Positions 8,881-28,663 of a stretch of 64,000 bases of DNA are shown in pieces (position 1 is the first letter of the stretch; every line of letters starts with the position of its first letter). Position numbers and translations under genes: made by a program. Origin of the DNA: Blasia pusilla (lineage: Eukaryota); the NCBI GenBank assembly GCA_050084515.1, contig CM114271.1, positions 29,512,001 through 29,576,000 on the forward strand. Direction: 5' to 3'. The notes beneath the pieces were generated by a model. It worked only from the letters and a program-made list of their open reading frames with translations. It was not told where the DNA came from and did no database searches.

Positions 8881-9040
8881 AAAAACAAGGCTAAGCAAGT
8901 AACCCGAGCCCGCCCAAAGCCCACTGCGTAGACCTCAGCTAACAAAGCCCGCACCCATTGCGTGGCCGGCAAGGCAGGCTTGGCCCCCATTAGGTGGGCT
9001 AAGGCCCGCGCAAGGCCCGTAGTGTGGGCTAGGGGACATC

Positions 9041-9352
9041 TGTGGAAAACTGCTAAACAAACATAATTGGTGGAAAACGACTTTCACACACACACACCAC
9101 CATGGAGAACAAAATTTGCAATGAGAGAATAAGTGGAGGCTAGTCCTCTTCTCAATTATAAAGGGTATGTACAACCAACCCTAACCCTACCCTTAACCAT
9201 AGTCTCGAGTTAGCCTAACTGTGATTAACTAATCCTAGTTAAGATAATCGTGCTTAACTGACTAACCAAGATTAAGCTTCCTTACTTCATGTGAGTGCCA
9301 AATGTAGCAGTTTAGATGTCTCATGAGCTTGACTGTAACTCAATCTTCAATA
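9041..9352 (-). repeat. 3' LTR of Copia family 1 copy A
   Basis: tgtggaaaactgctaaac...caatcttcaata, homologous to 47391-47702 and 52393-52696. Confidence 0.92.
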
Positions 9353-11743
9353 CTCCCCCTCAAGCTCATATCGATATCTCTAACGCCTAAATCCTTTCTA
9401 AACATCTCAAACTTATCTCTAGACAATGCCTATGTAAAGATGTCAGCAATTTGATGATCTGTACCTATATACACAAAATTAATTTCTCCTGCAAGCACTT
9501 TCTCTCTGATAAAATGATAGTGCACCTCAACATGCTTTGTATGAGCATGAAACACATGGTTATTAGCAAGCTTGATGCTACTAATATTGTCTACATATAT
9601 TACACTAGGTCCTAAGTTACTAACACCAATCTCAACAAGTAATCGATGAAGCCACACCGCCTCACATGCTGCATTGGTTGCTCCTCTGTACTCAACCTCT
9701 GTTGAAGATTAAGCAACTGTAGGTTGCTTCTTTGAAGCCCAACTTATAGCTGCGCTTCCCAAAGTAAATGAATAAGCGGATGTGGAGTGTCGATCAGACA
9801 CGCTTCCTACCCAATCAACATCTATGAATCCCTGTAATTGAAAACTCGGAGAAGGTTCAAATTGAAGCCCGAATTGAATAGAGAATTTGACATACCGCAT
9901 AATCCTCCTTAGAGCATCAAGGTGAGGTTTTCGAGGTGCTTGCATAAAAATGGATCACTAGGCCAACAATATAGCTCAAATCTAGTATGGTTATAGTTAG
10001 ATAGATCAAACTTCCAACCATGTGCCTGTACATGTTAGAATCTGCAAGCAGTTCTACTTCATCCACTCTTAGCTTCACGCTCTGGTCCAATGGTGTAGAG
10101 ATCGGCTTACAAGCCGTTATACCATATTTTGAAAGTATATGAAGAGCATATTGTCATTGTAGTAACCACATGCTCTCTCCAACTTTGATAAATTGAATAT
10201 CAATGAAGTACTTGAGTTCTCCCAAGTCCTTTGTATCAAATTCTGCTTGTAACTTAAGCTTGACTTGTTGTACCATTTCTTCAGTAATCAAGAGATCTTC
10301 AACATACAACATAATGAGAACTGTATGATCTTGTCCTCTCAAGATATATAACGAGGAGTTAGAATCACATACCCTAAAACCCAACTCTTGTAGGATGTAT
10401 GTAATCTTGCCATACCAAGCTCTTGGAGCTTGTTTGAGCCCGTATAGAGCTTTCTTCAACCTGCATACGCGAAATGGAAACGTGGGATGCTCGTATCCAG
10501 GTGGTTGAGTCATATATACCTCCTCGTATAGATCTCCATTCAAGAAGCCATTCTTGACGTCCATGTGATGTAATCTCCACTTCTTACTTACTGCAACTGC
10601 AACCATTGTTCTCATAGTCGCCATCTTTGCAACACGGCTAAATGTTTCCTCATAATCGATACCATATTTTTGTGCATAGCCCTTAGCCACCAACCTCGCT
10701 TTGTATATGTTAATTGTACCATCTTGATTGCGCTTGACTTTTTAAACCCATTTGCAACCAATAGCTTCCTTACCGGAAGGTATATCAACCAGCTCCCATG
10801 TTTGTTGACGTCTTAATACAGCAAGCTCTTCCTCCATAGCTTCAATCCATTCGGCTTTACTCGCAGCTTCTTCAAAACAACTCAGCTCATGCTCTTGAAG
10901 GGTAGTCATCATATAAGCATGATGTGTTGCAAAGAAACCTTCATTTATGAATTTATGAACTCGATGTGTAACTCTACTTGATCTACGAAGTTGTTGTTTA
11001 GAGGTAGATGCCTTTGACACCCGACTTGAGCTCTAACTAGTGTCAACAGACTGAATATGTACTCTTCCCATCCATGGACTCACAGATTTAACTAATGAAT
11101 CTAGGACCTCTCCTAATCCTGCACTAGTACTTGGGGAAGTTTAAGACAATGTCTTTTGGTTTGTAGTCATATTCTCCCCCTCAACAAACAAGTTTAGAGA
11201 TGGAATAGGCTCAGATGGAGCATACCATGACTTTAGCTCATCAAAGACAACATCCCGACTAATAATAAGCTGCTTAGAGGATGGAATGTAGCATTTATAC
11301 CCCTTAGTTCCATGAGTATAGCCAATGAAGATACATCTTTCAGACTTGGGGTCTAATTTCTGACGTATCTCAAAAGGAACATGAGCATAAAAAATATAGC
11401 CAAATACTTTCAAGAAAGAAAATTCAGGTTTACTTTATGTGAAGACTTCAAATGGAGTTTTATCATGAATTCCTACTGTTGGAGTTCGGTTCATTAAGAA
11501 GATTGCACATGCTACAACCTTTGCTCAATACACCTTAGACATGTTCTTCTCATTCAGCATAGCTCGTGCCGCTACAGCAATATGTCGATTCTTCCTCTCA
11601 GCCACTCCATTTTATTGTGGAGTGTAACGGCAAGTCACTTGACGTTGGATGCCATTCTGGCGTAAATAGTCATCAAACTCTGTTGAAAGATATGCTCCTC
11701 CTCCATCACAACGCAATTTCAGAATGTGTTGTCCAATCTGCTT

Positions 11744-11850
11744 TATCGTGCGAATCCACATCGTCATACAACATACATTGCTAACATACCATACTCACAT
11801 ACATACATAACAAAGACGAGAGCATACACAAATACAAGTGTATCACAACT
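11744..11850. repeat. Repeat A (107 bp), terminal copy at the element 3' end
   Basis: Direct repeat of 12220-12326 (t[a/g]tcgtg.gaatccacatcgtcatacaacatacat...cacaact). Confidence 0.95.
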
Positions 11851-11955
11851 GAAATCCGTGAAAGACCTACTGTCATAAAACACGTATAGAATCACATACA
11901 ATCGAGCCAAATCCACTCCACGATGGGAGAATCCAAGTCGAAGCTTGCGAGAACC

Positions 11956-12217
11956 ACCATAGCCAAGAGCTCTACTCACTACCAAGGCTAATTCCCAACG
12001 CAACAGACTCAACTCAAAGAACTAACTATTCTTTGAGTACACTCCACACTATACCCTCCAACCTAAGGATGGGCCCTACTGGAAAAGTCAACCTCAATAG
12101 AGTAACCCCCAACCCTATGTATGAAACCGCATCCCTACCTAGACACTATGGCCCTACATAAGGTATGGCCTCTACTAGCACACTATACTCTACGACATAA
12201 TCCGTATGGTCATGACA
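11956..12217. repeat. Repeat B (262 bp), internal copy
   Basis: Direct repeat of 26764-27025 (accatagccaagagctc...ccgtatggtcatga[c/g]a). About 17 substitutions counted by eye. Confidence 0.95.
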
Positions 12218-12219
12218 GT

Positions 12220-12326
12220 TGTCGTGTGAATCCACATCGTCATACAACATACATCGTTGACATACCATACTCACATACATACATAACATAGACGAGAGCA
12301 TACACAAACACAAGTGTACCACAACT
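12220..12326. repeat. Repeat A internal copy, joined to B by a 2-nt spacer and adjacent to a PPT
   Basis: The junction reads catgaca-gt-tgtcgtg. A minus-strand purine tract aggggggcg lies at 12327-12335. Confidence 0.93.
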
Positions 12327-12489
12327 CGCCCCCCTAATTGGCGGTTAGGTCCCTCTAACTCCTAGGTAGCCCTACACATCTACTATATGCTATACACCTT
12401 CGTGGGTGCACGAATCAGAAGGCCAGGTACTAGGTTGCCCCATCGTTAGTTGCACATCTGTAATCCATATCATGCAAAGATCAAGTCAT

Positions 12490-13230
12490 CTACCCCTCCT
12501 TAGTACATCGAGGACAAACCCACCTTCCAATAGGAACAACATCCATATGTGGAGTCAAACACATCATGTGCCAATCCCTAGAACACCGATCACACAACAA
12601 CATACATGCTGCGTTACCAACAGACCCACACAACATGCACCTCAAGCTAGCACGTATCATGGCTAAGCTTGGGTCAACAGTACAATCCACATTTGGAAGA
12701 TGACATGGCGCACAATTACGCACATGGTCCTTCCAAACAACTCCATCACAACCCTCCAACTTGAGAACTCTAGAAGCTAACACCTCTCGCACTCGTAAAA
12801 TAGTGCGGCCTACCATCACATCCAACGTTGTCGGTGCAATCTGCTGCAAATATACATAGTCCCCCACATGGAACCTACGAATAGATGGTCGATAACCTCC
12901 ATCCCGAATGGTTGCATACTGCAATGTATCCCTGTGTTGAGCAATGGCTGTTGGAATAACTCTCCGAAAGAGCTCTGCCCGCTGAGAACACACTCTCATC
13001 CGCATCTCTGGTTCATCAAGGTTCACCATCTCACTAGACTCCCGACGAATTATTGTTGGCAAGTCTGGATCTCGGCCGTATAACAGAAAATAAGATGAGA
13101 AGGAAGCCAAGGATGCTTAGCGACTGACCCTATACCCCATGGCTAACCATGGCAACTGAATATCCCAATCTCCAAGATGCCCCTTCTGTAGGCCATAATT
13201 GCGCAATGCTCTCTTCACCGTCTGAACCAC
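12490..13230 (-). pseudogene. Gypsy integrase C-terminal region ending in a PHD finger
   Basis: SSYFLLYGRDP, then FHVGDYVYL, then CMLC-x8-LLCDRCSRDWHMMCL-x10-WVCPRC, a C4HC3 PHD pattern with the conserved W. Confidence 0.9.
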
Positions 13231-13234
13231 ACGT

Positions 13235-14511
13235 TGTCGTGTCGAGAGCCTTTCTTCGAGTAAGGGCAGGCCTTCTAACTGTGGCAGACGTGGTCAATGC
13301 AAGATGAACTCTCTAAGAAGTTCTCCTTTTTTAATACAAGATTATTATGTATACTCTCCATTATCTCACAACAGGTATTACAAATGGAAGTGCCGAGGTA
13401 ATCACTTCTTTGTAACATCGAACCCCCAAATTCATAACTATAAAATCCCTATAAACTACTTTACGCTTGTACACGAGGAAGATAGCACAACTAGTGTTAA
13501 ACCCTACTTGAGCAGGCCTATTGACATCCATGGATCATTATATAAGGACATATAAAATACAATCCCATGTCCTTCCATATGTGACGATAGGAAGGATCAC
13601 GAGAGTTGGAGATTAAATGACCTGGTTAATGAACGCCTCCCCAAAGTGGTAAACTAAATAGCGAATGAACCAGTGCCTATCTACAAAGAGTATCTTGACA
13701 TGGTATGAATTGAGGAAAGGAAATCCGGGCACAACTCGTGCTCCACCCCTATCCATGTTTGATAGACATTCTCTACTCTCCTCAAGAATGGGTTTTGATG
13801 GAGTTATTCTCCCAAGAGGGGTAATCTATTTTCATTGGGAAAGTAACAAGCCAAAACATTCACTATTTTAGTATGACTACACTCCTCTAAGGTGACAAAC
13901 CTCTCATCTCCACACACATACCATACTCTAGAAATCTCTCAAAGAATAGACCATGGTCAAGCTACTCTCCCAAGAGGGATGATCCATTCTTATTGGAAGA
14001 GCAAGCAATCCCAAAGCCATACACTCAAGAGTGACACGAAAGACTCAAGATGTGGAATAAAAGATGATGAACCCTTGAAGATCCCTCCTTTTATATACTC
14101 ACAAGAGATCCACAAGAGTACGAAATAGACCTAATCTTATCTTGTGCCACATGGCTTCCTCTCAAGGCTTAGCCAATCACATTTTGACACAAGTAGATTT
14201 CCTTTTATCTCTTCCAAAATATCCTCTTTTACCCACTTGATATTTTCCAAATTACCCCAACTAACCTAGCCACCAACCAAGCTTACTTTTGCTTTTCATT
14301 AAAGCACCAACCTCACTACTTTATTTTTATAAATTCATCCTTTATTTATTACCTCTTTTCCTAAAGTTGGGCCTGCATAAAAAAGGCACCATAAAGAGGT
14401 TTAAACATGAGAATATCCTTTTCCTAAGCTAATTTACTAAATACTAATAAAATTCTATCTAACACTTAACGAGGAAGGAGTTTACACACTGGCTGATTTT
14501 ACTATACGACA
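13235..14511. mobile_element. Solo-LTR-like insertion (1277 bp) in the integrase core
   Basis: Termini TGTCGT...ACGACA with a 4-bp TSD ACGT/ACGC. Removing it restores integrase ADGLAKR|VVQTVK. Confidence 0.85.
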
Positions 14512-16813
14512 ACGCTTAGCCAAACCATCCGCCTCTGAATGATCTCGAGACGTGGTCCGATGATCAATCAACGCCTTGTCACACTAGATCTGAAATTCAC
14601 CCAAACTCAGACGTACGTCACAAAGACTCTCATTTGGTGCACCAAAATGACTAAGCACTCTATGAAGAAACGCATACGCCGTACCCTCACTTGCCTTGTC
14701 AGATAATGCCACCAACTCAATCCACTTGGAGAAGTGCTCCACCATCACCAACACATATCGATGATGTTGTACATACCAACGATAATATGATCTGCAAAGT
14801 CCACACTCCAACGGTAATCCAACCCCATAATAGGCAAGGGATGTAACTGTGGTGTAGGGGCATTGAATGATACCCTCACCGAGTCACAAACCATACAAGG
14901 TGACACCAATTGCTGCACCTGAGTATGCATGCCACGCCACCAATATTGACCAAGGAGTCATTTTGGGATAAAGCTATATGTACGCTTTACCCCAAAATGT
15001 CCCAACTCCTCATGGGTATGTCGCACAATACGTTCTCTTTGAGCCAAATGCGGCACCACACGTACTCTACCATCCTCCTACACACGGAAAATATGTGTTC
15101 CCTCCAATCGATACCTCCTAGTACGTGGAAGAATAGGATCTCGCTCCTTGGCACTCACTATGCCTGGCACCCTATTGGTCCGTAGGAACTCCAACACCAA
15201 CGCATCATCATGAATATCACGTAGATCCGTACCACCATCTCCAACCTTACGATCTGAAGGCTGACCATCTACTACCTTTTGACTAGAGTAAGATGTCATG
15301 TGGTCCTCCATACTAGAGTCCACCCCTAACCAACATAAAAAGGCACATGCATGCCAACCTGGCACCATCTCCTCATCAACCTTACCATGCCATGTAGCCC
15401 CAATTGCATCCTCTTGGCTAGTATATGGATTCCTACTCAACCCTCAGCATCAAGGTTGGCAACTCCAGGTCTATGTACCACCTGGAAGTCATACTCTTGT
15501 GAGATAAGAGCCCACCGTGCAAGCTTCCCTGTAAGCTTGTCACACTCCATCAACCACTTGAGCAGCTGGTGATCAATAACAAGGGTAAACTGTGTGCCAA
15601 AAAAATAACACCTAAAGTGTGCCACAGCCCACACTACTTCCAAGCACTCTCCCTCATATAAACTATAGCGCGACTCCGCTGCATTACTCGAATGACTTGT
15701 ATAGGCCACCACAAACTCCATGTGCTCGTCATCATGTTGTGTCAACACCGCTCCAAGTCCCAACATACTCCAATGAGTGTGCAAATGAAATGGGCACCCT
15801 CTGATAGGTCTCCTCAAGATAGGCACGGCCACCAACTAGGCCTTGAGCTCCACAAAAGCTCTCTCCTGATCATCTCCCCAGTGCCACTCCTGATCTGATT
15901 TCAGCAATTGGTTCAAAGGCTTTGCCATAGCACTAAATCCCTTTACATACCTCCGATAGTAGTTCGCCAATCCCATGAATGCCCGAACTCTACTCACATC
16001 TACCGCACAAAGAATAAGTACAATAGCCTCCACCTTTGCTTGCTGAACTCCCAAACCACTTGGATATATCACATGACCCAAGTACTCAACATCCTCATGG
16101 AAGAACTTACACTTTCCTGGATGCAAACGTAGACCATGAGCTTTCAACCGCTCAAACACAATCTGCAAATGTATCTGATGCTCCTCCACCGTGTTACTGA
16201 ACACCAAGATATCATCAATGTAACACCGAACAAAATCCAACCCTGCTAGGATCCTGTCCATCACTCTCTGAAACTCGGCAGGTGCATTCTTCAAACCAAA
16301 GGGTAAGAATTTCCATTGGTACAAACAATCCTTGCCATGAGAGTTGACACCCCAAAATGTTGTCTAAGCCTTGTCACTCTCTCAAATGGGCAACTGATGG
16401 TATCCTGCCCGGAGATCCAAAGTACTGAAAATCTTTGCCTCTCCCACCACATCAAAGATCTCCTCAGGTGTAGGCATGGCATACCTATCGGCCTTGGTTT
16501 GCCAATTGATAGGACGGTAATCTCCATACATCCACCTATCCGTGTAGTTGCCATACATATTCTTTTTAGCAGGCATGACAGTGGCTGATGCATACTCTCC
16601 ATGCGACAACTCCACTAATCCAGCCTCCAAAAGGTCCAACGTCCTACTTTGAATCAAGTCCCTCTCCATATCACTATATCGGTAAGGACGACAAAAGATT
16701 GGCATATCATTAGCCAAATCAATCCGTATACAGGGTCCAACCAAAGCACCCAACTCCTTCATGCTAAAGCAAAACAACTCCAATAAGCACGTAGGTAATA
16801 TGTCAAGCGTCAT
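14512..16813 (-). pseudogene. Gypsy RT, RNase H, integrase zinc-binding and core domains (stops and frameshifts)
   Basis: RT motifs: DYRPIN, FSTLDLRAGYHQL, LPFGLKNAP, YIDD, YLGH. RNase H: LGAVLTQ, YFFGTQFTLVIDH, HRPGVANLDA. Integrase: HEELGHFG...CMVCD, VMVEHFSKW, VLSHFGAP. Confidence 0.95.
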
Positions 16814-17028
16814 TTCTCACCTCCCGTAAGTTTGGGCCCAAGTAATGGCTCCCAAGTCTCCTCCACTGGCACACTAGAGGGAGAGGACGACGCCATTGGC
16901 TGCTATGCAATCCCCTCACAAGATGGTACACCCTTAGCTACACCATCCTCTGAGCAAATAACACCTCCACGAGCATGAGCAACCAACTCCACAAGCCCAG
17001 CCATTACATCCCATTTACTCCAAGAACC

Positions 17029-18122
17029 CTAAATACTACTCTCCTCACCCCCAGCCGATGCCACTACCATCCCGATAGCCATCGAGCTCATCATAAGGGG
17101 TGGAAGACCCACATACATAGTCCGAAGCCAATGTTGCTCGGCCATACCAAGACTCAAAATCCACGTCAAACAATTCAGGTCCATGGCCTGACCCAACACA
17201 TGACGTTGAGAAGCCTCAGAAATGGAAGCAACCATTGTCACACCAGTTGCAAATCCCATCGCACGCTCTCTCTCATCAGCGTGAGGCTCCACCAATTGTC
17301 GCTCATGAGAATCCCATACAAGCCCGGGACCACCTTCCCTATAGGCATGTGACGAGGGAAAACTCACAAATGTGGGTAGTGCCATCCTAGGCTTCCCCAC
17401 ACGGTTCACCATTGCCATGGGTGACCGATCGATAACCCTCACCACTTGAGAAAGTCGCCCACTATCCAAGATACTATCCACTGTAAAGCAAGGATCCCGC
17501 TGCATTGCATCATATGCTCGACGTAGAACCTCCCTGGGCAACAAGTTTGTCCATCACAAGCGGGGACGATGTGCACGCGAGCCAACTCGCGCTGCATCCA
17601 ACAACACCGCTGGTCCAATCCAAGACTGCACCTCATGAACACTCGCCATGATCCAGGTCTGAGTATCACCCAACAATGGAACATTCTCCAGAATGTAAGC
17701 TTGAGCACGTGCCTGATGAACGTGAAGATGTCGTAACACACGCAACATCTCCCAAAACAATCGAGACCTAGAGTCGTGTAATCCCTCACCACGACCAGCA
17801 CGTGTATGACCCTGACATGGCTATCTAGCAATCACCAAATCCACAAGACCAACCCTCTTAAGGTCCTGCGCTCCCAACAATGCAATGTGTGGGAGCGCAG
17901 GAGCGCTGATGGCGGAAACAACTCAAGATATCTCCACATCAACTGACCAATATGTCGGGATGAGACTCTCTGGGCCGTCTCATCTCGCTCCACATACACA
18001 TATCTCTGCAGAGGAATACCCGCCTGCAATACTGCAACCAAACTAGTGCTAATCCAACCAAAGAGATCTAACACACAAAGGCCCTCCGGCGGATACTGCC
18101 ATACAATGGGTGTAGTATGCAA
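17029..18122 (-). pseudogene. Cytosine-5 DNA methyltransferase domain (DNMT3-like) within pol
   Basis: Motif I VLDLFGWISTSLVAVLQAGI and motif II YVYVE. Motif IV DLVIAR*PCQG, read manually at about 17841-17809. Motif VI YILENV. Motif VIII DAARVGSRAHRPRL*WTNL. Motifs IX-X ERERAMGF...RHVLGQAM. Confidence 0.9.
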
Positions 18123-18508
18123 AGGGGATAACCCAACTGGACCAGAAGTAGGAGTCCTCCGTGGAGTCTCCTCTTCCTTGTGAGATATAACACCCTCATA
18201 CCAAGCCTCTTGAAGTAGGCGATCAGCCTCCTACCGTAGTGCACCGCCTGAACTCCAAAGTGGCACATCCGATGATGAGGATGCAAGTGCTGCAAAACTA
18301 GGGACCTCCTCTACCTCCTCATGCACATGAGAATCCATAGTAGAAAGATTACCCTCCAAAAAGTCTCCTGGCCACTAAAACCAGTCACAGATGCTAACAC
18401 TGTTGGGGAAGACCCTCCTAGCCGAGCCCCATAAATAAATCTCACAGGAACCTGACTCATATGTCGATCCCCAGACTGCCAACCAGGTCTATAAGATGCT
18501 GTCTCACT

Positions 18509-18823
18509 CTAGTAGTCCATATGAAAACCCATCGGGTATAATACTGCTCCTCCAACTAGTACATCATACGACTCGGCCGATGTGACCATTGCAGGTACTC
18601 CCAACCGGGAGCTATCAGTTGCATGATCTGGTCTCAACTGTACAGACAACTTCTCCCATGTCATGAATTGAGACCTATCATTGGCTCCTCCAAGTGATGT
18701 TTGAATCTGGAATGGGCAAGGCTCAAGCTCTGACCTCCGAATACCCAAACCAATGCATGCCGCCTTTCCCAACATCAAAGGTTGGGCACCAGAGTCTAAC
18801 AAGACTCTATCTGGTCTATACAT
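18509..18823 (-). pseudogene. Retropepsin-type aspartic protease
   Basis: VLLDSGAQ catalytic motif and a downstream YDVLVGG motif. Same frame as RT. Confidence 0.88.
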
Positions 18824-19322
18824 CTATCTTGTAGGACTCACCAATCGGAATATCCCACTGTGGTTGTCCAACATACATACACGAGGTGTAAGCCTCTCAC
18901 GATCAATGGCTGGCCGGGCTGCTAATGCATCCATCTTCGCCGCTGCTGCCTGCCAAGTAGCACTGGTACTCAATGCTACACCTGACATAGAGGTGCTCCA
19001 CTGCAACACCTTCATCCACCTCAGCAGGTGTAGCAATAACACCCCCACGTTCACACAGCGTGGCTGCTAGCTGAAAAATAGGAGCTAAGTCAACTCCTAA
19101 AGCCATCAGCTCCGTAGCTGAAAAAAATGGGGATCCCAACAGTGAAGTTGCCATCCGCAATACTGCACTGGATGTTGCATCCGTGTCTACTACACGCAAT
19201 GTAGATGCCTTAGTCCCCACAGTAGGCTCAATAGGCTGCGTAGGAACCATGGATGGAATCCTAAGCACCTCAGACAACAAGAATGACTAGGGAAGCCTAG
19301 CCTTCCTCCCAACCTCACCCCT

Positions 19323-20950
19323 CTATGGGTCCAACTCCACAGTAGCACCACATGGTTGTGACGCTCGAGTGGCTCCTCTTGTAACTGCTCTTGATGCCTC
19401 AACCTGTGCTGCACTCACCATATAAGAGAGATCATCCCCTCCATAAGAGGTGGAAGCCCTTGCTCCCGAACCTGCTCTATGCTCGATACCAGCCATAGTA
19501 GCCAACCTCTGCTCCAACTGCTCAATCGTGGCAGCAATACCTGACTCTATCATAGTGGTAGGGGCATCCACCGTAGGCTCTCTAACTGCTGATCCACCTC
19601 TACCACCTCAGCCTCTCGGAGCTACTCCACCACAACCGCGGCCTGATCTCAACTCTGGATGAAGATCAATGCAACGCTCTCAAGGATGACCTGGTCTTCC
19701 ACAATGATCTCACTAAGTTGGGGCTGATTGAGGTCCATCCTCCAAAGTCCGTCCCCCATCCTCTTGGGGAAAAAACCTCCTAACATGATCACCTCCACAT
19801 GTCCAACATGATTGTCCTTGCTGCGGGGCAGCAAATGAAGGCAATGGTCTCTGCGCAAGTGTCCCTCTAGGATCTAATTGAGGTCGTGTGTACCCCCCAT
19901 AACTCCCACTACTACTACCGCCACCACCACTACGAGACTGTGAGGTGGACTACTAAACACGAGAAGTAGTAGTTGTATCCCTACTGTATGCGGATGTCAC
20001 CACCCTCTCCTCCACCATATTAAACTCAATCTTCTCAAATAGAGCAAACATATGGGCCAATGTGGGTGAATCATCACTCATAAGAGTAGCATCACGTACC
20101 CTACGACGCAACTCTCTGTCCAAGATCCCATACCAAAATTGGACTGCCTAAGCCTCATTCACACCCTGGGTAACTGAAATCAAGCGTCGCATACGAGTGT
20201 ATGCCTCACGAAGACTCTCACTAGTCTTTCGCTCAAATTCCTTAAGACTCCTCAACTTCTCTGTCTTCACCCCTTGATAGTTCTTCTTCAACCTCTTGAA
20301 GAACTCTGCAACCGGGCTAAACGATGGTGGGGCACTAGTACCTCCACTAGTATCCCCACTGGTACCTCCATTGGTACCCCCACTCCGGCTCGTACTCGCA
20401 CCACTTAACATCGGGCTAGCTAACAGAGTAAGAGCACTACTACCAATACCACCATGGGTGATAGACACATAGCTTGGAGACCAATCTTGTCTCCATGCCT
20501 CAATCTCAGCAACATGGTCCCTCCTAAACTCATGGTAATCATCCATGGGTGGTCCCTCCAAGTGCTGAAAGAACCCCTTCCAAGCCAAGAAGGGTGTAAA
20601 CAATGTGGCATTCCGCAACATCTGCATATCACACCACATATCAAACTCCTAAATGAATTCCTCCAACTCAATGGTGCCCACTGCACCCGAGTATTGTTGT
20701 GAGCCCTTCATGGCCCCATACATCCCGTCCATGTCCCAAATCAATGGAGTTGCAACACTCGATAACAACGTAGAAGACTCGGTATTTGGAACACCCTCGT
20801 CCTCCTCTTCATCAACCGTCGGAAGTGGAAAAGGTAGCCGATACCTCAATCCACTTCGTGTAAAACCACCAGTGTCCGTACCACGGTCGCCAGCCAGACC
20901 ACCAAACAGCTCCGTGATGACCAACGCCGATGCCGCACCACCACCAAATC
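19323..20950 (-). pseudogene. gag of the Gypsy-like element
   Basis: Capsid-like EFFKRLKKNY...LKEFERKTSESLREAYTRMRRL. CCHC remnants CWTCGGDH and HCGRPGHP*ERC at about 19670-19810. Confidence 0.75.
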
Positions 20951-21811
20951 AAGTGACGTCGATGTCGCTGTACTATTCTAGCTCTACTTGCTATGGGTGT
21001 GAGCAACCTAACCTATCATCACCACAAGAAGCCTCCCACGGTCTACTGGTCATCACTCTAGCCTCACTACCGATAGCACACAGGAGTAAAACTACTCTGG
21101 AAATCAGCGTAAGCCCTAACAATGGGCGCGCAAGCAAGAAGCAATGATGGAGGGGGTCCAAACACAGGAAGTCCAACGACAACCCTCCAATCGCAAATGG
21201 AAGTACAAAGCGGAAATCAAAGTAACACAATCCACCAAACGTGGCGCCCCCTGAATCTACAAAAACAACCACACAATTCTAACGCAATAGTCACTCCGCC
21301 GGTGGTCGATGACGTGCAAGTCGCACTCGCAGCACCTGAAAATGTCACCTGCATGGAGAGGCCACACTGTACTATGCACTAGAGGTCCATCAACCAAAAA
21401 CCCGAGATGTATAAAAGCGCCTAACGCATATCCAAATAACACCAAATGAACTACACGAGTGTGTACATTGGCATAGTTAAGTACTTAGCAGTTAAGTACT
21501 CAGCAGTTAAGCGTCTTCCAGGCAGAATAGCCCAAAGATGGGTGACCAGTTATGCAACACTCAACTCACAAATAGGGTAGGGGCAAATTTTTTCTATTAA
21601 TAGAAATGAAGAAAAATAGGTAAAAACCCTAGTTTTCTCGAGTAGTCAAATAGTCGGGAGCCGCAGCAGTAGCCCATTCTTGTATGTCGAGTTATCTCCC
21701 AGTTTAGGTTCCATCGAAGCTCTTCTGTGAGCGCACGGACGGACTAGGCCTCTTTGTATCTCTAAGTTTTGTAAAGATTTCAGTGATTTCGTCACTTTCT
21801 GTTTTCTCACA

Positions 21812-21823
21812 TGGTATCAGAGC
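21812..21823 (+). promoter_or_regulatory. Primer-binding site complementary to the initiator tRNA-Met 3' end
   Basis: TGGTATCAGAGC directly follows the LTR end ...ctcaCA. Confidence 0.92.
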
Positions 21824-21883
21824 AGTAGGTTTTCCAGTATTTTGTATCTGGCGATCTAGTGTGTTTGCACAAAATCTTGAGAG

Positions 21884-24800
21884 ATGGCTACCTCTTCGTC
21901 ACTTCGTGCTCGCCCTCCTCCGCTGGGTGAAGGGAAGTTAGATGGATCTAACTATACGTTGTGGAAGTTCAAAATGAGAACTGTTCTCGAATCATTTGAG
22001 ATCTGGGAAACGGCCACAGGGGTCGATTCAAATCCACGAGCTAGTGTGAGTTCTGCATGTTCATCTTCATCTGGGGACATCGATCTTCTTGTATTATTGG
22101 CATGGAGACGCAGAAATGCTGATGGTCTATATGCGATTGTCACAAATGTAACTGATTCTATCATGACTCTCATTCAACATACAACCACTGCTGCTGAGGC
22201 GTGGAACATTTTGAAGAATCAGTATGAAACAAGGAATGAGACTCGGATTCAGAATCTGGAGAATCAGCTTACGTCCGAGAAATTTTCAGAAGGAGAAAGC
22301 GCGGAGCAATTTTTGACAAGGATCAAGAATCTTCAAGATCACATGGCGTCCGTGGGAATTTCAAAGTCTAGCGAAGATTTGGCATGTCGGTGCATAAGGA
22401 TTTTGCCTCCAAGGTATGACAGTTTGGTCACTGCACTGAATACTCAAGTAAGACCCACGCCGCTTACTTCTGAACAATTTAGTGCAATGTTGGTAGAAGA
22501 GGAAATGCGCTTCAAAGCAAGAGAGGGAAGTGACGCAGCATTTACTGCCAACGTACAGAGAGGTAGAAATCAGGATTACAGTTCAAATGTCAAGAAGAAA
22601 TTTCCAAGAAAAACCTTCAAATGATTTTATTGTGGTAAGCTAGGTCATCTTATCAAAGATTGTAGGAAGAGGAGTCAGGATGAGAAGAACGGTTGTTTAA
22701 GACCTAAGAAGGAGTCTGGAAAGTGAGAAGGGGGAGAACATGAAGTAGATGCTTGGGTAGCAATAGAAGAGTTTTGCACACAGGCAGAACATTCCACTAA
22801 GACAAAGAGTGAAGATGCATGGGTGCTCGATAGTGGAGCGTCTAGGCATATGACCAATCATAAGGATTGGTATAGCTCCTTACAGCCTCTACAGGAGCCC
22901 ATCGTTGTTACTGTTGGGAATAATGCAAAATGCCCTGTAGAAGGGAAAGGCACAATTTCTTTAGTCTCACAAAAGGAGATGAAAAGAAGTTAACTGATGT
23001 CTTTGTGACGTACCCGAGTTGAAGCGAAATTTGATTTCAAAGTGGTGATTATATGATCGTGACCTAGAAGTTCGTTTCAAGAAAATCGAGCGATCATTGA
23101 GGATGCCAATGGGAAAGTAGTGGGTGAAGGTATACGACATGGAAATATCTACGAGTTGTATGCTTTCACGACAAGTGTAGGTACAGATCTTAGTAGCGAT
23201 GTAAGTTGTGGCATGAAAGATTTGGTCACCTAAGCTTTCCCTTACTAAGTCGATGCAGAGAAATGGCATGGTTCTTTGATTTACCAACAATTTCGGAGTG
23301 TCGGATACTTGTGAAGCTTGTATGATGGGCAAGCAACACCGACAACCATTTCCACAAGAGTCCAGAAATAGGGCAAAGGCTCCTCTAGAGTTGATACATG
23401 CTGACCTCTGTGGTAAAATGAGAACAATGGCATTAGGTGGTTCTTCCTACTTCTTTTTAGTTGTCGAAGATTATAGTAGGAAGATGTGGGTGTATTTCCT
23501 TCGTGATAAGGCAAGTGCTTTTGGAAAATTTAAAGTATGGCACAAGCTGGTTGAGAATGAGACATGAAAGAAGGTACAAAAGCTTCGCACCGATCGAGGA
23601 GGAGAATTCTTATCAACAGAATTCAACAAATATTTGGGAGAGCATGGAATCAAGGGATAGTTAACCACGGCACATACACCACAACAAAATGGAGTTGTTG
23701 AGCGTCGAAACCGTACAGTGGTGGAGATGGCAAGATGTATGATGAAAGCAAAAGGTTTTGAAGGATTTTGGGTGAAGTCGCATTATCTTGCCGTATACAT
23801 TCTAAATAGAAGTGCTACCAAGTCAGTGCAAGGCATGACTCCTCATCAATCATACTCACGTAAGGTACCATCAGTCCAACATTTCAGGACTTTTGGTAGT
23901 GAGTGTTTTGTACATATTCCTGAAGCATCGAGGACCAAGTTGGAGTCCAAGAGCAGGAAGTGCATCTTTATGGGATACAGTGATGAGTCTAAAGCTTATC
24001 GCGTTTGGTGTCCTGAGGAAAAGAAGATGCTTGTGAGTCGTGACGTGGTGTTCCAGGAACAGCCTCGTCAAGTGGCGGATATCAATGGTCCGTCCACATT
24101 ATCATCAAACGAAGAGATAACCCACCAGAGCACACCACAGATGTTTACACCAGATCATCAAGAAGAAGAATTTGGTGATGATTACAAAGAGCAACCTTCT
24201 CTTCCACTACGGTCGTCATACCCTAAGTGGATAAAGCAGCTCTTGGATGGTAAGGATCCACCAGCAACTGATGAAGTTGTTACACATCCAAGGAGATCCA
24301 AGAGACTAGAGGAGCAGAATAGAGCTTCCGCACATCTCGTCAACATGGCCCTGATGACAGAGGTCTTGAAGGTGGAAGAGCCATCATGCTTGGATGAGGC
24401 CCTCGCTCATCCTCAATGGAGAGAGGCCATGCAGACGGAGATGGACGCTATTCAGAGAAATGAAACTTGGACTTTGGTTGAAAAGCCAGAGGACAAGAAG
24501 ATAATACGCACCAAGTGGGTGTACAAGACCAAGTACAAGTCGGACGGTACATTGGATAAATTCAAAGCGAGGTTGGTCGCACAAGGATGCTCACAAATCG
24601 AAGGCTTTGACTACTATGAGACTTTTGCTCCCACTGCAAGGATGACAACCATTCGAATTGTTCTAGCGGTTGCAGGAACAAGACGTTGGCCTGTATACCA
24701 ATACGATGTGAAGTCTGCTTTTCTGAATGGGAGTCTCAAGGAGGAGGTATATGTTTCTCAACCACCAGGTTTTGAGACACCCGGATCAGAAGAGAAAGTT

Positions 24801-25901
24801 TGTTTACTTCATCGAGCATTGTATGGGTTGAAGCAAGCCCCAAGGGTATGGTATCAACGAATAGATACATTCTTTCGAGAGAAGGGTCTCATGAAGAGTC
24901 CTTCAGAAGCAAATTTGTATGTGTTTTGCGAAGATGGGATGTATATGTTGATAGTCTTGTATGTGGATGATCTGATCATCACAGGAGACCACAGTAAGAA
25001 AATAGAGGAAATGAAGGGAGTGTTGGAATCTGAGTTTGAAATGTCAGATTTAGGTCTTCTGCACTACTTTATAGGATTGGAAATTTGGCAACAGTCAGAT
25101 TCTATTTTTCTCTCTCAGCAGAAGTATGCTAGAGAAATCTTGAAGGCATTCGGGATGACCGAGTGTAAGGCAGTGGTCTCGCCAATGGAGGTGGAGTTGA
25201 AACTCTCGATGGAGGATGTTTCACCATTGGTAGATGAAAAGATATACAGAAAGCTTATAGTCAGTTTGATATTTTTGTGTAACAGTAGACCAAACATTAG
25301 CTTCGTTGTGGGAGTATTGAGTAGGTTCTCAACTAAGCCTCGTGAGAACCATTGGAAGGCAAGGATGCGTGTGTTGAAGTACATCAAAGGCACTATCGAG
25401 TACGGCATCACCTATGGAGCAGGGACGAAAATGACAGGTTTTTGTGACTCAGATTGGGCAGAAGATTTAGATTCTCGAAGATCAATTTCGGGTTATTGCT
25501 TCTTGGAAGGATCAGGTGTGGTGTCATCGGTCAGCAAGAAGCAATCTACAGTGGCTCTTTCTTCTACCGAGGCAGAGTACAAGGCGGCTTGTTATGCTTC
25601 TTGTGAAGCAGTATGGTTGAGATGGATACTGCAAGACATAGGAGAAGCACCAGAAAGTGCTACTGTAATGTGGTGTGACAATCACAGTTGCATTGCCATA
25701 GCACATAATCTTGTGTTTCATGCTCGTACAAAGCACATAGAGATCCAATACCATTTTGTTCGTGAATTGATCAAGAGAGAGGTTTTGAAGTTAGTCTATT
25801 GTCCAACAGAGGATAACCGTGCAGACATCTTCATGAAAGCCTTGAGCGGAGATCAGCTTCACCGACATCTGAAGGGTCTTGGCATAGGTCCAAGACAGTA
25901 G
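21884..25901 (+). pseudogene. Copia gag-pol polyprotein (several stops and frameshifts; 727-aa INT-RT-RH segment open)
   Basis: KLDGSNYTLWKFKM gag, CCHC remnant, WVLDSGAS protease, ELIHADLCG integrase, YGLKQAPR and LYVDD RT, ARTKHIEIQYHFVRE RNase H. Confidence 0.95.
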
Positions 25902-25930
25902 TCCACATGAGAATGGATATTGAGAGGGGG

Positions 25931-26309
25931 TATTGGATTCTCAACATCCACTCCTCTGAGCACCATTGATTTGATCGGCTCCCTTGTATGAGGAGAATCC
26001 TAGATCGATGGTTCCAACTTAGACGTCGGAGGAATCATAGTAATATGACGTAGGTGGTTTACGGAGTAGCGTTACTAGAAACAATTTTTTTCTATTAATA
26101 GAAACGAAGAAAAATAGGTAAAAACCCTAGTTTTCTCGAGTAGTCAAATAGTCGGGAGCCGCAGCGGTAGCGCATTCTCGTATGTCGAGTTATCTCCCAG
26201 TTCAAGTTCCATCGAAGCTCTTCTGTGAGCGCACGGACGGACTAGGCCACTTTGTATCTCTAAGTTTTGTAAAGATTTGAGTGATTTCGTCACTTTCTGT
26301 TTTCTCACA
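25931..26309 (+). repeat. 3' LTR of Copia family 2
   Basis: Starts tattgg right after the PPT and ends tttctcaca. Only the last 228 bp are shared with the 5' LTR. Confidence 0.85.
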
Positions 26310-26763
26310 CAACCGAGCTCTGTACTCCAAGCTAAAAATCAGACAAACTTGTTGTCCATACACCTCCAGAATCGCAAATCCGACAGCGCTTCCGCCCAGA
26401 TTCATGCACACAGAAATCTGCAACACTCTTTCACCACAGAAGCAATCCGCTCCATACACTCAAGCTGATAGCTTCACATGAGATAAAAATAGAGGTAGAA
26501 ATAGGAAGCTCCAACCTACAGAGCTTCCGCACTCCAAGCTCTCCACATTAGAAAACCGTCGAACACGAGCCAGAATCTTCAATCTTTGATAACTCCCAAC
26601 TCCCTTGATGAAATCCGGCGATTTAAAGTGCATTGGAAAGCTCTTAGCAAGGCGCTTCTTTCCCAGCCAACCACGCATCAGATCCACACCTCCAACATAG
26701 GCCACAAGCCACAAACATCCATGGAAAATTACACTATCAGCCCTAACCAGATCCTACTGATCT

Positions 26764-27025
26764 ACCATAGCCAAGAGCTCTACTCACTACCAAGGCTAAC
26801 TCCCAACGCAACAGGCTCAACTCAAAGAACTAATTGTTCTTTGAGTACACTCCACACTATACCCTCCAACCTAAGGGCGGGCCCTACTGGAAAAGTCACC
26901 CTCAACGGATTAACCCCCAATCCTATGTATGAAACCGCATCCCTACCTAGACACTACGACCCTACATAAGGTATGGCCTCTACTTGCACACTATACCCTA
27001 CAACATAATCCGTATGGTCATGAGA
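26764..27025. repeat. Repeat B terminal copy at the element 5' end
   Basis: Matches 11956-12217 and abuts TSD GCTT. Confidence 0.95.
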
Positions 27026-28119: not shown

Positions 28120-28663
28120 TGTCGTGCGCCTACTCTCCTTGAACGTTATTCTTGTTTGTTGCGGAAGCGTGCGTTCAGTAGGTCACGCTCTCAACGCTGA
28201 TCTGCATCCAAACACGCACTTTGGTTAGTCGGATCCAAACACGCACTTTGGTTACTCACGCATTTTCTAAGATATTTAGTGCGTTTGAAGCGTCTCAAGA
28301 TAAACTTTCCAACGCGCTCTTACTTGTCCCGAACTCATCTTGGAGCTCAATGTTACGGTCCTAAACACAGTCAGATTCTCCCAAACGCTAGTCGTGTTCC
28401 AAAGTGGTTCTCACCTCTTTGGCAACCAACCTCCCAAGATTCAACTAATCTCAAGTCTTGGCTCGCATTTGGTCTAGGTTTCCTGTTCGCGACCACTAAG
28501 GCATAAAACGCACAACTTTGTTCCACGTTTCGTCTCTTAAACTTTTCCAAGAGACTTTTCCAAACGCCTCTCCAAAGCGGAAACCTCGCAGCGTGAGTTC
28601 ACTTGAGTTCTGATTTTTCACTTGGCGCCTATTTGGTGTTGTTTGGTTATGAGGGTCGCAACA
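28120..28663. mobile_element. Solo-LTR-like insertion (544 bp) in Copia gag
   Basis: Termini TGTCGTG...CGCAACA with a perfect 4-bp TSD ATAT at 28116-28119 and 28664-28667. Absent from the sister copy at about 51190. Confidence 0.88.

What the first reader, a model, noticed from the sequence alone, without database searches (positions are those of the whole stretch)
17029..18122. Gypsy-like retroelement encodes its own DNMT3-like cytosine methyltransferase inside pol
Seen: C5-MTase motifs I, II, IV (PCQ catalytic loop, hidden from the ORF track by a stop one codon upstream), VI (ENV), VIII (AHRxR) and IX-X lie in canonical order between the protease and RT. Motifs IV-X share one frame. Established: ordinary Gypsy pol is PR-RT-RH-INT with no MTase. 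The compact spacing and the AHRxRxxWxNL and ExERxxGF wording resemble DNMT3 rather than the permuted plant DRM enzymes. From memory, retrotransposon-borne DNMTs are known from dinoflagellates and a charophyte alga; I do not know them as a standard feature of land-plant elements. Inference: the domain was a protease-released polyprotein subunit that could methylate the element's own cDNA or its insertion site. This copy is dead.
Basis: partly seen in the sequence, partly recalled or inferred. Interest (0 to 1): 0.92.

Follow-up and report, generated by a model that had tools for sequence, protein, structure and literature searches.

The report
Retrotransposon carrying its own DNA methyltransferase
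A dead copy of a jumping gene carries its own DNMT3-type DNA-methylating enzyme, and it belongs to a large, expressed family found in liverworts, peat mosses and green algae, a kind so far described only from one alga.

Summary
On the minus strand, window 18074-16906 holds C5-methyltransferase motifs I, II, IV, VI, VIII, IX and X in unpermuted order, between protease and reverse transcriptase. The segment is broken by one frameshift and three in-frame stops.

- **Type of enzyme:** a family profile hits only DNMT3A/B/C at the top of the PDB, well ahead of DRM. A predicted fold agrees.
- **Not a one-off capture:** the whole element is colinear with Marchantia polymorpha Gag-PR-DNMT proteins and with intact metagenomic copies. 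Named relatives occur in Marchantia, Riccia, Calypogeia, Sphagnum, Closterium and Haematococcus.
- **Selection and expression:** dN/dS on the domain is 0.09-0.2 between lineages. Strand-specific RNA reads from sister copies cover it.
- **Element:** window 11744-27025, 4-bp target duplication, confirmed against an empty paralogous site. Repeats are arranged A-coding-B-A-B, as reported for KnitGypsy-Dnmt3 of Klebsormidium.
a conserved in-frame UAG in a tobamovirus-type leaky context (UAG CAR YYA) separates Gag-PR-DNMT from RT-RH-INT. The integrase ends in a PHD finger, not a chromodomain.

Verdict: a new member, in a likely bryophyte host, of the known Gypsy-DNMT3 kind. Methylation of the element's own cDNA is inferred, not shown.

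The parts
11744..27025 (-). Whole inserted DNMT-bearing Ty3/Gypsy-type element. It is 15,282 bp long, about 9.3 kb without its two nested insertions.
   Evidence: The flanks 9040-11743 and 27026-29797 are contiguous in a paralogous copy at 47390-52321, where the empty site is at 50099-50102.
11740..11743 (.). Target-site duplication GCTT, left copy. The right copy is at 27026-27029.
   Evidence: The empty site reads ...TTTGCTTCTC... with GCTT once. Relatives L046 (AAGG) and L040 (TCTC) also have 4-bp duplications.
26764..27025 (-). 5' repeat A1, 93.5% identical to A2. This copy lacks the about 105-bp 's' part.
   Evidence: map the repeat. RNA joints 26762/26765 -> 11850 show that sister copies have 's' next to the internal region.
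21584..26309 (+). Nested Copia element, with 228-bp LTRs 96% alike, inserted in the 5' part of the DNMT element.
   Evidence: family D8; Pfam Retrotran_gag_2, RVT_2 and SH3_retrovirus.
18996..20732 (-). Gag region, including the CCHC region of relatives. Decayed.
   Evidence: tblastn: P0122 aa 1-572, 60% identity. The Retrotrans_gag hit is weak.
18509..18823 (-). Aspartic protease (LLDSGAQ).
   Evidence: translation. The gag-asp_proteas hit is weak, E 0.057. Colinear with P0122.
16906..18074 (-). DNMT3-type C5 cytosine methyltransferase domain, motifs I-X. Lesions: frameshift near 17900, TAG 17823-17821 (replaces the W of GWPCQ that is invariant in the A1 relatives), TGA 17556-17554, TAG 17031-17029.
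16897..16905 (-). Conserved in-frame stop and its context, TAG CAG CCA (UAG CAR YYA), between the DNMT and RT frames.
   Evidence: a stop at the homologous site in 26 of 26 sequences. The motif definition comes from PMC3542737.
15437..16816 (-). Reverse transcriptase and RNase H, with a frameshift near 16770.
   Evidence: Pfam RVT_1 2.3e-25 and RT_RNaseH 8.5e-29; tblastn with L056 ORF2 and L034.
14512..15443 (-). Integrase zinc-binding and catalytic-core region, with frameshifts.
   Evidence: tblastn with L056 ORF2 aa 495-788. The rve hit is 1.3e-5, below Pfam's cut-off for this fragment.
13231..14511 (.). 1,281-bp secondary insertion that interrupts the integrase and is absent from sister copies.
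   Evidence: The joint 13230 -> 14512 is seen in three RNA runs and in DNA contigs. There is a matching gap in the tblastn colinearity.
12499..13236 (-). Integrase C-terminal region ending in a PHD finger (12505-12639).
   Evidence: Pfam PHD 5.2e-8. The same C-terminal PHD occurs in L056 ORF2, P0172 and Haematococcus P0346.
12327..12337 (-). Polypurine-like tract (AGGGGGG) immediately upstream of B1.
   Evidence: Conserved in the window, L046 and L040. Its function is inferred.
12219..12326 (-). Repeat B1, 93% identical to B2.
11851..12218 (-). Repeat A2 including 's'. The B1|A2 junction reads ...CACGACA-NN-TGTCATGACC.
11744..11850 (-). Repeat B2, the 3' terminus of the element.

Best explanation
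Window 17029-18122 (more fully 16906-18074, minus strand) is the decayed DNMT3-type cytosine-C5 methyltransferase domain of a full-length but dead Ty3/Gypsy-type retrotransposon at 11744-27025.

The domain is an integral, selected module of a large retroelement family of the green lineage. It is not a local capture.

In the window's lineage the coding order is Gag-CCHC-PR-DNMT, then a conserved UAG, then RT-RNaseH-INT-PHD in the same frame. The most likely expression scheme is inferred:

1. Termination at the UAG gives abundant Gag-PR-DNMT.
2. Occasional read-through at the UAG CAR YYA context gives the full polyprotein.
3. The protease releases the parts.

The DNMT keeps all catalytic residues in intact relatives. 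It most likely methylates DNA de novo, with the element's own cDNA or new insertion as the likeliest substrate, as proposed for DNMT3-bearing retrotransposons in 2018. The C-terminal PHD finger of the integrase probably tethers integration to nucleosomes.

My confidence differs by part:

| Claim | Confidence |
|---|---|
| Identity and family membership | about 0.9 |
| Read-through expression | about 0.6 |
| Self-methylation of cDNA | about 0.3 |

The confidence number given for this explanation is for identity and family membership.
For: **MTase identity**
- Pfam PF00145 hits above its cut-off.
- The profile of 26 relatives against the PDB puts 29 DNMT3A/B/C sequences first, at E 4.5e-20 to 2.3e-14. 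DRM follows at 7e-8, M.HhaI at 5e-6 and DNMT2 at 2e-5. No DNMT1 or CMT appears at E <= 1.
- The AlphaFold model of relative P0003 has pLDDT 70.5 and pTM 0.73. Its best Foldseek hits are DNMT3A/3B/3C, E 2e-16, target-normalised TM 0.70-0.75.
- C92 (PCQ), E135 (ENV), R175 and R177 are invariant in 24 of 24 diverse relatives.

**Integral to the element**
- The window is colinear with P0122 (Gag-PR-DNMT, aa 1-1269) and with L056 ORF2 (RT-RH-INT-PHD).
- P0170 has CCHC-PR-DNMT-RT-RH in one ORF.
- L056, L052 and L034 are intact.

**Breadth**
- The search of representative proteins gives 10,236 hits at E <= 1e-3 and 477 at E <= 1e-30.
- Named hosts are Marchantia, Riccia, Calypogeia, Sphagnum, Closterium and Haematococcus.

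**Selection**
- dN/dS is 0.13 for L055 against L056 (dS 0.26).
- It is 0.09-0.21 between deeper lineages and 0.82 between two young copies.

**Expression**
- Three stranded RNA runs cover 11500-20931 at depth about 8-127 with the first mate on +, which means sense RNA. The nested Copia on the other strand shows the opposite bias.
- Only 12-25 of 3262-3594 laid reads are at least 99% alike, so the reads come from sister copies. Depth over the DNMT bins is 12-62.

**Leaky stop**
- A stop sits at the homologous site in 26 of 26 sequences: TAG in 21 and TAA in 5.
- The next codon is always CAA or CAG. The full CARYYA context is present in 5 (the window, L034, L052, L055, L056) and CAACCC in 21.
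- The ORFs on both sides are open and in the same frame in L056, L052 and L034.
- At least 8 of 16 annotated proteins end there.

**Integration**
- 4-bp duplications are seen in 3 of 3 elements that have both ends, with TG...CA termini in L046.
Against: - No activity, substrate or read-through was measured here.
- The window copy is non-functional, and two of its three DNMT pieces gave no Pfam hit alone.
- 21 of 26 sequences have CAACCC, which departs from the CARYYA consensus at its last base. Those 21 are closely related, mostly decayed copies, so the independent lineages that support the stop number about four.
- Clade P0170/P0188 has no stop between DNMT and RT.
- No host DNMT3, DRM or Klebsormidium sequence could be put in a tree. 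'DNMT3-type' therefore rests on profile and fold ranking against solved structures only.
- Feature-based Atlas neighbours at equal score include phage MTase clusters.
- The AlphaFold model is of moderate confidence.
- The RNA reads were laid at 92% likeness or more. They show expression of relatives, not of intact copies.
Confidence: 0.88

Rival explanations
1. One-off event: a host DNMT3 exon or pseudogene, or an unrelated insertion, landed inside this particular Gypsy copy.
For: The copy holds two other nested insertions, a Copia at 21584-26309 and a 1,281-bp piece at 13231-14511. Nesting therefore happens here.
Against: The DNMT sits at the same place, in frame, in M. polymorpha, Calypogeia and many metagenomic copies. 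RNA and DNA joints flag the 1,281-bp insertion as absent from sister copies, but no listed joint flanks the DNMT segment (38 further joints were not shown). dN/dS is well below 1.
Confidence: 0.01
2. The domain is a prokaryotic or phage-type C5 methyltransferase acquired horizontally, and its resemblance to DNMT3 is superficial.
For: Atlas feature neighbours at score 0.96 include two clusters dominated by Uroviricota. One database relative is labelled as a bacterial MAG protein, P0059. The family lacks PWWP and ADD domains.
Against: The profile search gives DNMT3A/B/C at 1e-20 to 1e-14, against M.HhaI and M.HaeIII at about 5e-6. All listed Foldseek hits are DNMT3. The DNMT3-like wording of motifs I, VIII and IX shows in the alignments. 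P0059 aligns as an ordinary family member, so mis-binning is likelier.
Confidence: 0.05
3. The domain is kept for something other than methylating the element's own DNA. Candidates are RNA methylation, methylation of host loci in trans, or a structural role in the particle.
For: De Mendoza et al. 2018 (Discussion read) state that the role is unclear and raise RNA methylation for one family. Placement in the Gag-side frame would give Gag-like abundance, which is unusual for an enzyme.
Against: The catalytic Cys, ENV and RxR residues are invariant, which argues for catalysis. The closest solved relatives are DNA de novo methyltransferases. SymbioDIRS-Dnmt3 DNMTs can methylate CG de novo according to the 2018 paper.
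Confidence: 0.15
4. The conserved stop is not read through. RT-RH-INT would be made another way, by splicing, re-initiation or a subgenomic RNA, or the sampled copies descend from a stop-bearing non-autonomous lineage.
For: Most sampled copies use CAACCC rather than CARYYA. Some M. polymorpha gene models, P0124 and P0132, run from DNMT into RT, probably through predicted introns. An RNA-only joint 12948 -> 15272 exists.
Against: The stop and the following CAR codon are kept across lineages with saturated dS and open frames on both sides. The +2 codon changes its amino acid (P, L, S) yet stays YYA or YYC. ORF2 continues in the same frame.
Confidence: 0.25

Closest known systems
KnitGypsy-Dnmt3 of the charophyte Klebsormidium nitens (de Mendoza et al. 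2018, Nat Commun 9:1341, PMC5890265; passages and Discussion read)
   Same: Both have Gypsy-type domains with an unpermuted Dnmt3-type DNMT in the polyprotein. Both have repeats arranged as in DIRS elements: the paper gives A-coding-B-A-B for DIRS and says KnitGypsy-Dnmt3 has the same repeat structure, and here the arrangement is seen in the window, L046 and L040. Both show purifying selection on the DNMT, with Ka/Ks < 0.2 reported there and 0.09-0.21 between lineages here.
   Different: The relatives of the window element are named from liverworts and peat mosses, not from K. nitens. The paper treats the acquisition as specific to the K. nitens lineage. No K. nitens sequence was retrieved, so direct homology is untested. 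The leaky UAG and the integrase PHD finger are not mentioned in the text I read, and the figure and supplements were not available.
SymbioDIRS-Dnmt3 of Symbiodinium (same paper)
   Same: It carries a DNMT3-type domain in a retrotransposon polyprotein and has A-coding-B-A-B repeats. A DIRS-type relative with RT, DNMT and a tyrosine recombinase (P0356) is a distant hit at E 9e-26.
   Different: Those elements use a tyrosine recombinase. The window element has a DDE integrase (Integrase_H2C2 and rve in relatives) and makes 4-bp target duplications.
Animal DNMT3A/3B/3C catalytic domains (solved structures)
   Same: They are the best sequence-profile and fold matches. Motif order and wording agree: LFxGIxTG, PC, ENV, AHRxRxxWxNL, ExERxxGF.
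   Different: Sequence identity is about 20-23%. The family has no PWWP or ADD domain, a longer segment between motifs VIII and IX, GWPCQG instead of GSPCND, and it sits inside a retroelement polyprotein.
Chromoviruses (Ty3/Gypsy elements with a chromodomain at the integrase C-terminus)
   Same: Both carry a chromatin-reader module at the C-terminal end of the integrase.
   Different: Its closest solved relatives are CHD4, PHF12, PHF21A, KDM5, KAT6A, ATXR5, UHRF1 and AIRE. From memory, most of these read the unmodified H3 tail. One relative, P0350, has both Chromo and PHD.
Type I stop-codon read-through of tobamoviruses (UAG CAR YYA; Firth & Brierley 2012, PMC3542737, passage read)
   Same: The window and loci L034, L052, L055 and L056 have UAG followed by CAR YYA at the frame boundary.
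   Different: It is known for plant RNA viruses. Here it would separate Gag-PR-DNMT from RT-RH-INT in a retrotransposon. Function is untested, and most sampled copies have CAACCC.

Membership tests
C5 cytosine methyltransferase (Pfam PF00145) | HMM match above the curated cut-off | tested here: met
   27.1 bits against a cut-off of 22 for window 17554-17820. Intact relatives score 35-51 bits.
C5 cytosine methyltransferase (Pfam PF00145) | Catalytic PC Cys (motif IV), ENV (VI), RxR (VIII) and the AdoMet motif I | tested here: met
   All are present in the window translation. C, E, R and R are invariant in 24 of 24 relatives. In the window, motif IV is preceded by a stop and motif VIII holds a stop.
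DNMT3 clade | Closer to DNMT3 than to DNMT1, CMT, DRM, DNMT2 or bacterial enzymes | tested here: met
   In the profile search against the PDB, the first 29 sequences are DNMT3A/B/C, followed by DRM, HhaI and DNMT2. All listed Foldseek hits are DNMT3. This is a ranking against solved structures only.
DNMT3 clade | Phylogenetic placement within eukaryotic DNMT3 with support | not testable with these tools
   No host DNMT3 or DRM sequences could be obtained. The tree holds only retroelement DNMTs.
DNMT3 clade (animal or plant host enzymes) | Companion domains: PWWP and ADD in animals, a DUF in land plants | tested here: not met
   Pfam finds only retroelement domains and a PHD beside the DNMT.
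DRM (domains-rearranged methyltransferases) | Circularly permuted motif order, VI-X before I-IV | tested here: not met
   The order in the window is I, II, IV, VI, VIII, IX, X.
Ty3/Gypsy (Metaviridae-type) LTR retrotransposon | Domain order PR-RT-RH-INT with a DDE integrase | tested here: met
Ty3/Gypsy (Metaviridae-type) LTR retrotransposon | Short target-site duplication and TG...CA termini | tested here: met
   4-bp duplications in the window, L046 and L040. L046 has TGTCATGACC...GCACGACA, while the window's termini are mutated to TC...TA.
Ty3/Gypsy (Metaviridae-type) LTR retrotransposon | Two equal LTRs that flank the internal region | tested here: not met
   The arrangement is A-coding-B-A-B.
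DIRS-like retrotransposons | Tyrosine recombinase instead of a DDE integrase | tested here: not met
   Relatives carry rve and Integrase_H2C2, and none of the scanned ORFs carries PF00589. Target duplications are present.
DIRS-like retrotransposons | A-coding-B-A-B repeat arrangement | tested here: met
   Seen in the window, L046 and L040. The definition comes from PMC5890265.
KnitGypsy-Dnmt3 | Gypsy domain set plus Dnmt3 in the polyprotein, with DIRS-like repeats | tested here: met
KnitGypsy-Dnmt3 | Sequence homology or common descent with the K. nitens elements | not testable with these tools
   No protein named from Klebsormidium appeared. The word-based searches are limited and list only the best hits.
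Chromovirus | Chromodomain at the integrase C-terminus | tested here: not met
   A PHD finger is there instead.
Type I programmed read-through site | UAG followed by CAR YYA | tested here: met
   The window reads TAG CAG CCA. The motif is met in 5 of 26 sequences, and the other 21 have CAACCC.
Type I programmed read-through site | Measured read-through | not testable with these tools
   This needs a reporter assay or peptide evidence.

The most novel reading that the evidence does not exclude
An old retroelement lineage of the green plants, from chlorophytes and streptophyte algae to bryophytes, combines four things:

- a DDE integrase tipped with a histone-reading PHD finger;
- DIRS-style A-coding-B-A-B repeats;
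- a DNMT3 module;
- in the bryophyte branch, production of that module at Gag-like abundance upstream of a tobamovirus-type leaky UAG.

On this reading the element writes cytosine methylation on its own cDNA or insertion site and chooses its chromatin. It is transcribed today in bryophytes, including the model Marchantia polymorpha. It may contribute to, or have exchanged genes with, the plant de novo methylation machinery.
Probability: 0.3. Interest if true: 0.8.

Novelty: new member of a known kind. Interest (0 to 1): 0.6.

Why it matters
Cytosine methylation is the main way plants silence transposons, so a transposon that carries its own de novo methyltransferase is counter-intuitive. The role of such enzymes was left open in the 2018 paper that described them.

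That report covered dinoflagellates and one charophyte alga. I found no text that names a bryophyte case. A 2025 paper speaks only of 'streptophytes'.

Here the family proves to be large, selected and transcribed. It is also annotated as ordinary 'hypothetical proteins' in Marchantia polymorpha, a genetically tractable model with methylome tools. That makes the question of function directly testable.

Two features give concrete hypotheses about how much enzyme is made and where the element lands. One is the conserved leaky-stop context between DNMT and RT. The other is the PHD-tipped integrase.

For annotation, such ORFs should not be counted as host DNMT3 genes.

Tried and rejected
- **Whole-genome census of copies.** No genome is held for this window.
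- **Naming the wider family.** Cluster look-up of 10 long representatives gave no organism names. The Atlas search gave only 'Streptophyta' and two phage-dominated clusters, with no structure search.
- **Link to Klebsormidium.** Three homolog searches returned no protein named from Klebsormidium. This is no evidence of absence, because the searches depend on shared words and list only the best hits.
- **RNA holders in the run index.** No RNA holder was listed. The raw RNA runs that were laid are what the expression statement rests on.
- **Repeat structure in the intact loci L056, L052, L072 and L034.** No terminal repeats were found. The contigs probably end before or at the repeats, so the structure was tested on L046 and L040 instead.
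- **Primer-binding site.** No convincing tRNA-complementary TGG site lies next to A1 in the window, L046 or L040. This is left open.
- **Rfam scan of the window.** No family matched.
- **Literature on PHD-tipped integrases of LTR elements.** One five-term search returned three unrelated reviews.
- **Literature search.** It was badly framed, because it did not require the citing phrase. It was redone.
- **DIRS element reading.** Rejected, because the element has a DDE integrase and target duplications.
- **DRM-type reading.** Rejected, because the motif order is unpermuted.
Full report
**1. Observation**

| Motif | Sequence | Window coordinates |
|---|---|---|
| I | VLDLFGWISTSL | 18074-18039 |
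| II | YVYVERDE | 18002-17979 |
| IV | DLVIAR*PCQG | 17841-17809 |
| VI | YILENVP | 17697-17677 |
| VIII | RVGSRAHRPRL*WTNL | 17589-17542 |
| IX | ADERERAMGF | 17280-17251 |
| X | VLGQAMDLN | 17199-17173 |

- The stop 'one codon upstream of PCQ' is TAG at 17823-17821. It replaces a tryptophan (GWPCQ) that is invariant in the A1 relatives.
- A second stop, TGA at 17556-17554, lies in motif VIII. A third, TAG at 17031-17029, lies near the end of the domain.
- Motifs I-II are in another frame, with the shift near 17900.
- Pfam DNA_methylase hits the middle piece at E 3.5e-6, above its cut-off. The two other pieces give nothing alone.
- The protease lies upstream and RT and RNase H downstream.

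**2. What the domain is**

- The window fragment alone finds only DNMT3A in the PDB: 12 of 12 hits, best E 7e-4.
- A profile of 26 relatives (alignment A1) ranks 29 DNMT3A/3B/3C sequences first, at 4.5e-20 to 2.3e-14. Tobacco and Arabidopsis DRM follow at 7e-8 to 3e-6, M.HhaI and M.HaeIII at about 5e-6, and DNMT2 at 2e-5. No DNMT1 or chromomethylase appears at E <= 1.
- An AlphaFold model of the intact relative P0003 has pLDDT 70.5 and pTM 0.73. It matches DNMT3A/3B/3C best, with Foldseek E 2e-16 and target-normalised TM 0.70-0.75.
- The motif order is unpermuted, which excludes the DRM arrangement.
- I could not place the clade in a tree with host DNMT3 and DRM, because no such sequences could be obtained.

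**3. The domain belongs to the element**

- Database searches with the read-through translation found 291 near-length and 60 longer relatives.
- Named relatives come from Marchantia polymorpha (for example Mp_4g09160, P0122, 1278 aa, 73% identity), M. paleacea, Riccia sorocarpa, Calypogeia fissa, three Sphagnum species and Closterium.
- P0122 reads Gag-CCHC-PR-DNMT. The window is colinear with it from 20732 to 16927.
- The window is also colinear with the RT-RH-INT-PHD frame of the intact locus L056, from 16935 to 12499.
- P0170 has CCHC-PR-DNMT-RT-RH in one frame.
- A profile search of 1.84 billion representative proteins gives 10,236 hits at E <= 1e-3, 2,026 at <= 1e-10 and 477 at <= 1e-30. 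Many are polyproteins of 1,000-3,456 aa.
- A second architecture, RT-RH-DNMT-INT-PHD, occurs in P0172, L072 and Haematococcus lacustris P0346.
- In a tree of 27 retroelement DNMT domains, five short rows were dropped: P0138, P0355, P0179, P0357 and P0175. The window falls in a 7-row clade with support 100/100, together with Marchantia, Calypogeia, L001, P0127 and L034. The deeper backbone is unresolved.

**4. Selection and expression**

- dN/dS was estimated with the Nei-Gojobori method on the DNMT domain.

| Pair | dN/dS | Note |
|---|---|---|
| L055 vs L056 | 0.13 | dS 0.26 |
| L052 vs L055 or L056 | 0.09-0.11 | dS about 1.5, near saturation |
| L001 vs L034 | 0.19 | |
| The window vs L001 or L004 | 0.26-0.32 | |
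| L001 vs L004 | 0.82 | two young copies |

- Only 7 of the 27 loci examined had an open DNMT frame. Most sampled copies are dead.
- Three stranded RNA runs with the same coded species label as the best DNA holder cover 11500-20931 at mean depth about 8-127, with the first mate on +. That means sense RNA of the element. The nested Copia on the other strand shows the opposite bias, which serves as an internal control.
- Only 12-25 of 3,262-3,594 laid reads are at least 99% alike. The reads therefore come from sister copies 1-8% away.
- The three bins over the DNMT have depth 12-62.
- In DNA run X1, 217,995 contig pieces were laid at 92% likeness or more. This points to many diverged copies, but it is not a copy number.

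**5. Anatomy of the element**

- The flanks 9040-11743 and 27026-29797 are one repeat. Its second copy at 47390-52698 is uninterrupted.
- The empty site at 50099-50102 reads GCTT once, and the window has GCTT on both sides of 11744-27025.
- A Copia is nested at 21584-26309.
- A 1,281-bp piece at 13231-14511 is absent from sister copies in both RNA and DNA.
- The repeats, read in element orientation, are as follows.

| Repeat | Coordinates |
|---|---|
| A1 | 27025-26764 |
| B1 | 12326-12219 |
| A2 with 's' | 12218-11851 |
| B2 | 11850-11744 |

- RNA joints 26762/26765 -> 11850 show that in sister copies 's' also follows A1.
- The same A-coding-B-A-B arrangement is found in L046 and L040. Their 4-bp duplications are AAGG and TCTC, and L046 has the termini TGTCATGACC...GCACGACA.
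- A G-rich purine tract lies directly before B1. The B1|A2 junction reads CA-NN-TG, like an end-to-end junction.
- De Mendoza et al. 2018 give 'A-coding region-B-A-B' as the DIRS arrangement. They state that KnitGypsy-Dnmt3 has that repeat structure with Gypsy domains.
- How such repeats are regenerated by an integrase-using element is unexplained.

**6. The stop between DNMT and RT**

- L056, L052 and L034 each have a single TAG between an open DNMT-bearing frame and an open RT-RH-INT frame in the same phase.
- I scanned the 80 loci and the window for a conserved peptide about 30 residues into the RT frame, then walked upstream. The peptide was found in 26 sequences, and 26 of 26 have a stop at the homologous site.
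  - The stop is TAG in 21 and TAA in 5.
  - The next codon is always CAA or CAG.
  - The codon after that is CCC in 21, CCA in 2 (the window and L034), TCA in 1 and TTA in 2.
- The window reads TAG CAG CCA at 16905-16897.
- UAG CAR YYA is the type I read-through motif of tobamoviruses (PMC3542737, passage read).
- The amino acid at +2 varies (P, S, L) while the pyrimidine pattern is kept.
- At least 8 of 16 annotated proteins examined end at this place, including ones from M. polymorpha and Calypogeia.
- Caveat: the 21 CAACCC sequences are close relatives. Independent support comes from about four lineages.
- The P0170/P0188 clade has no stop.
- I infer programmed read-through. Gag-PR-DNMT would be the main product.

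**7. The PHD finger**

- The integrase frame ends in a PHD finger at 12505-12639, Pfam E 5e-8. The same is true of L056, P0172 and the Haematococcus protein.
- Its closest solved relatives are CHD4, PHF12, PHF21A, KDM5A/B, KAT6A, ATXR5, UHRF1 and AIRE.
- From memory, most of these bind the unmodified H3 tail. This is a lead, not a test.

**8. Literature and novelty**

- Retrotransposon-borne DNMT3 is known from Symbiodinium and K. nitens (PMC5890265).
- 'Gypsy-DNMT3' occurs in two held papers.
- A 2025 paper and a 2026 preprint speak of 'streptophytes' and cite the 2018 work.
- None of the passages I read names a bryophyte or other land plant. The library holds open-access text only, and supplements were closed.

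**9. Verdict**

- It is a new member, with a likely bryophyte host judged from its nearest named relatives, of a known kind.
- The additions are the green-lineage breadth, two domain orders, the leaky-stop context and the PHD-tipped integrase.
- The biochemical role of the DNMT remains inferred.

Noticed in passing
window 9040-11743 + 27026-29797, and 47390-52698: Two copies, 87-93% alike, of a repeat of about 5.3 kb with its own 310-bp terminal direct repeats (47390-47700 and 52397-52698). Pfam recognises no coding domain in it, including the 269-aa ORF at 47690-48499. One copy is the landing site of the DNMT element. It may be a non-autonomous LTR element.
   Followed up: partly
window 13231-14511: A 1,281-bp insertion inside the integrase region, absent from sister copies in RNA and DNA. 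Its ends read ...TGTCGTG and ...CGACA, which resemble the terminal wording of the DNMT element's own repeats.
   Followed up: partly
window 12948 -> 15272: An RNA-only joint that skips 2,323 bases, seen in 15, 19 and 29 reads in the three runs and not in the DNA contigs. It could be a splice or a deleted expressed variant.
   Followed up: no
window 12184 -> 11896: A few RNA reads (3, 6 and 5) join a point 35 nt inside repeat A to a point inside 's', going backwards by 289 bases. They may mark a transcript terminal redundancy or a tandem or circular junction.
   Followed up: no
window 21584-26309: A nested Copia element with a 746-aa open RT-bearing frame and LTRs 96% alike. It is younger than its host element, whose repeats are about 93% alike. 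It is weakly transcribed from the + strand.
   Followed up: partly
P0350: One distant relative carries both a chromodomain (PF00385) and a PHD finger with its integrase.
   Followed up: no
P0059: A family member is deposited as a DNA cytosine methyltransferase of a bacterial metagenome-assembled genome (Candidatus Obscuribacterales). It aligns as an ordinary retroelement DNMT, so it is probably plant or algal DNA binned by mistake.
   Followed up: no
window 17823-17821 and 17556-17554: Both internal stops of the DNMT are TGG (Trp in relatives) changed by a G-to-A transition. Transitions dominate the differences between this copy and its expressed sisters, as expected for a methylated, decaying repeat.
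   Followed up: partly
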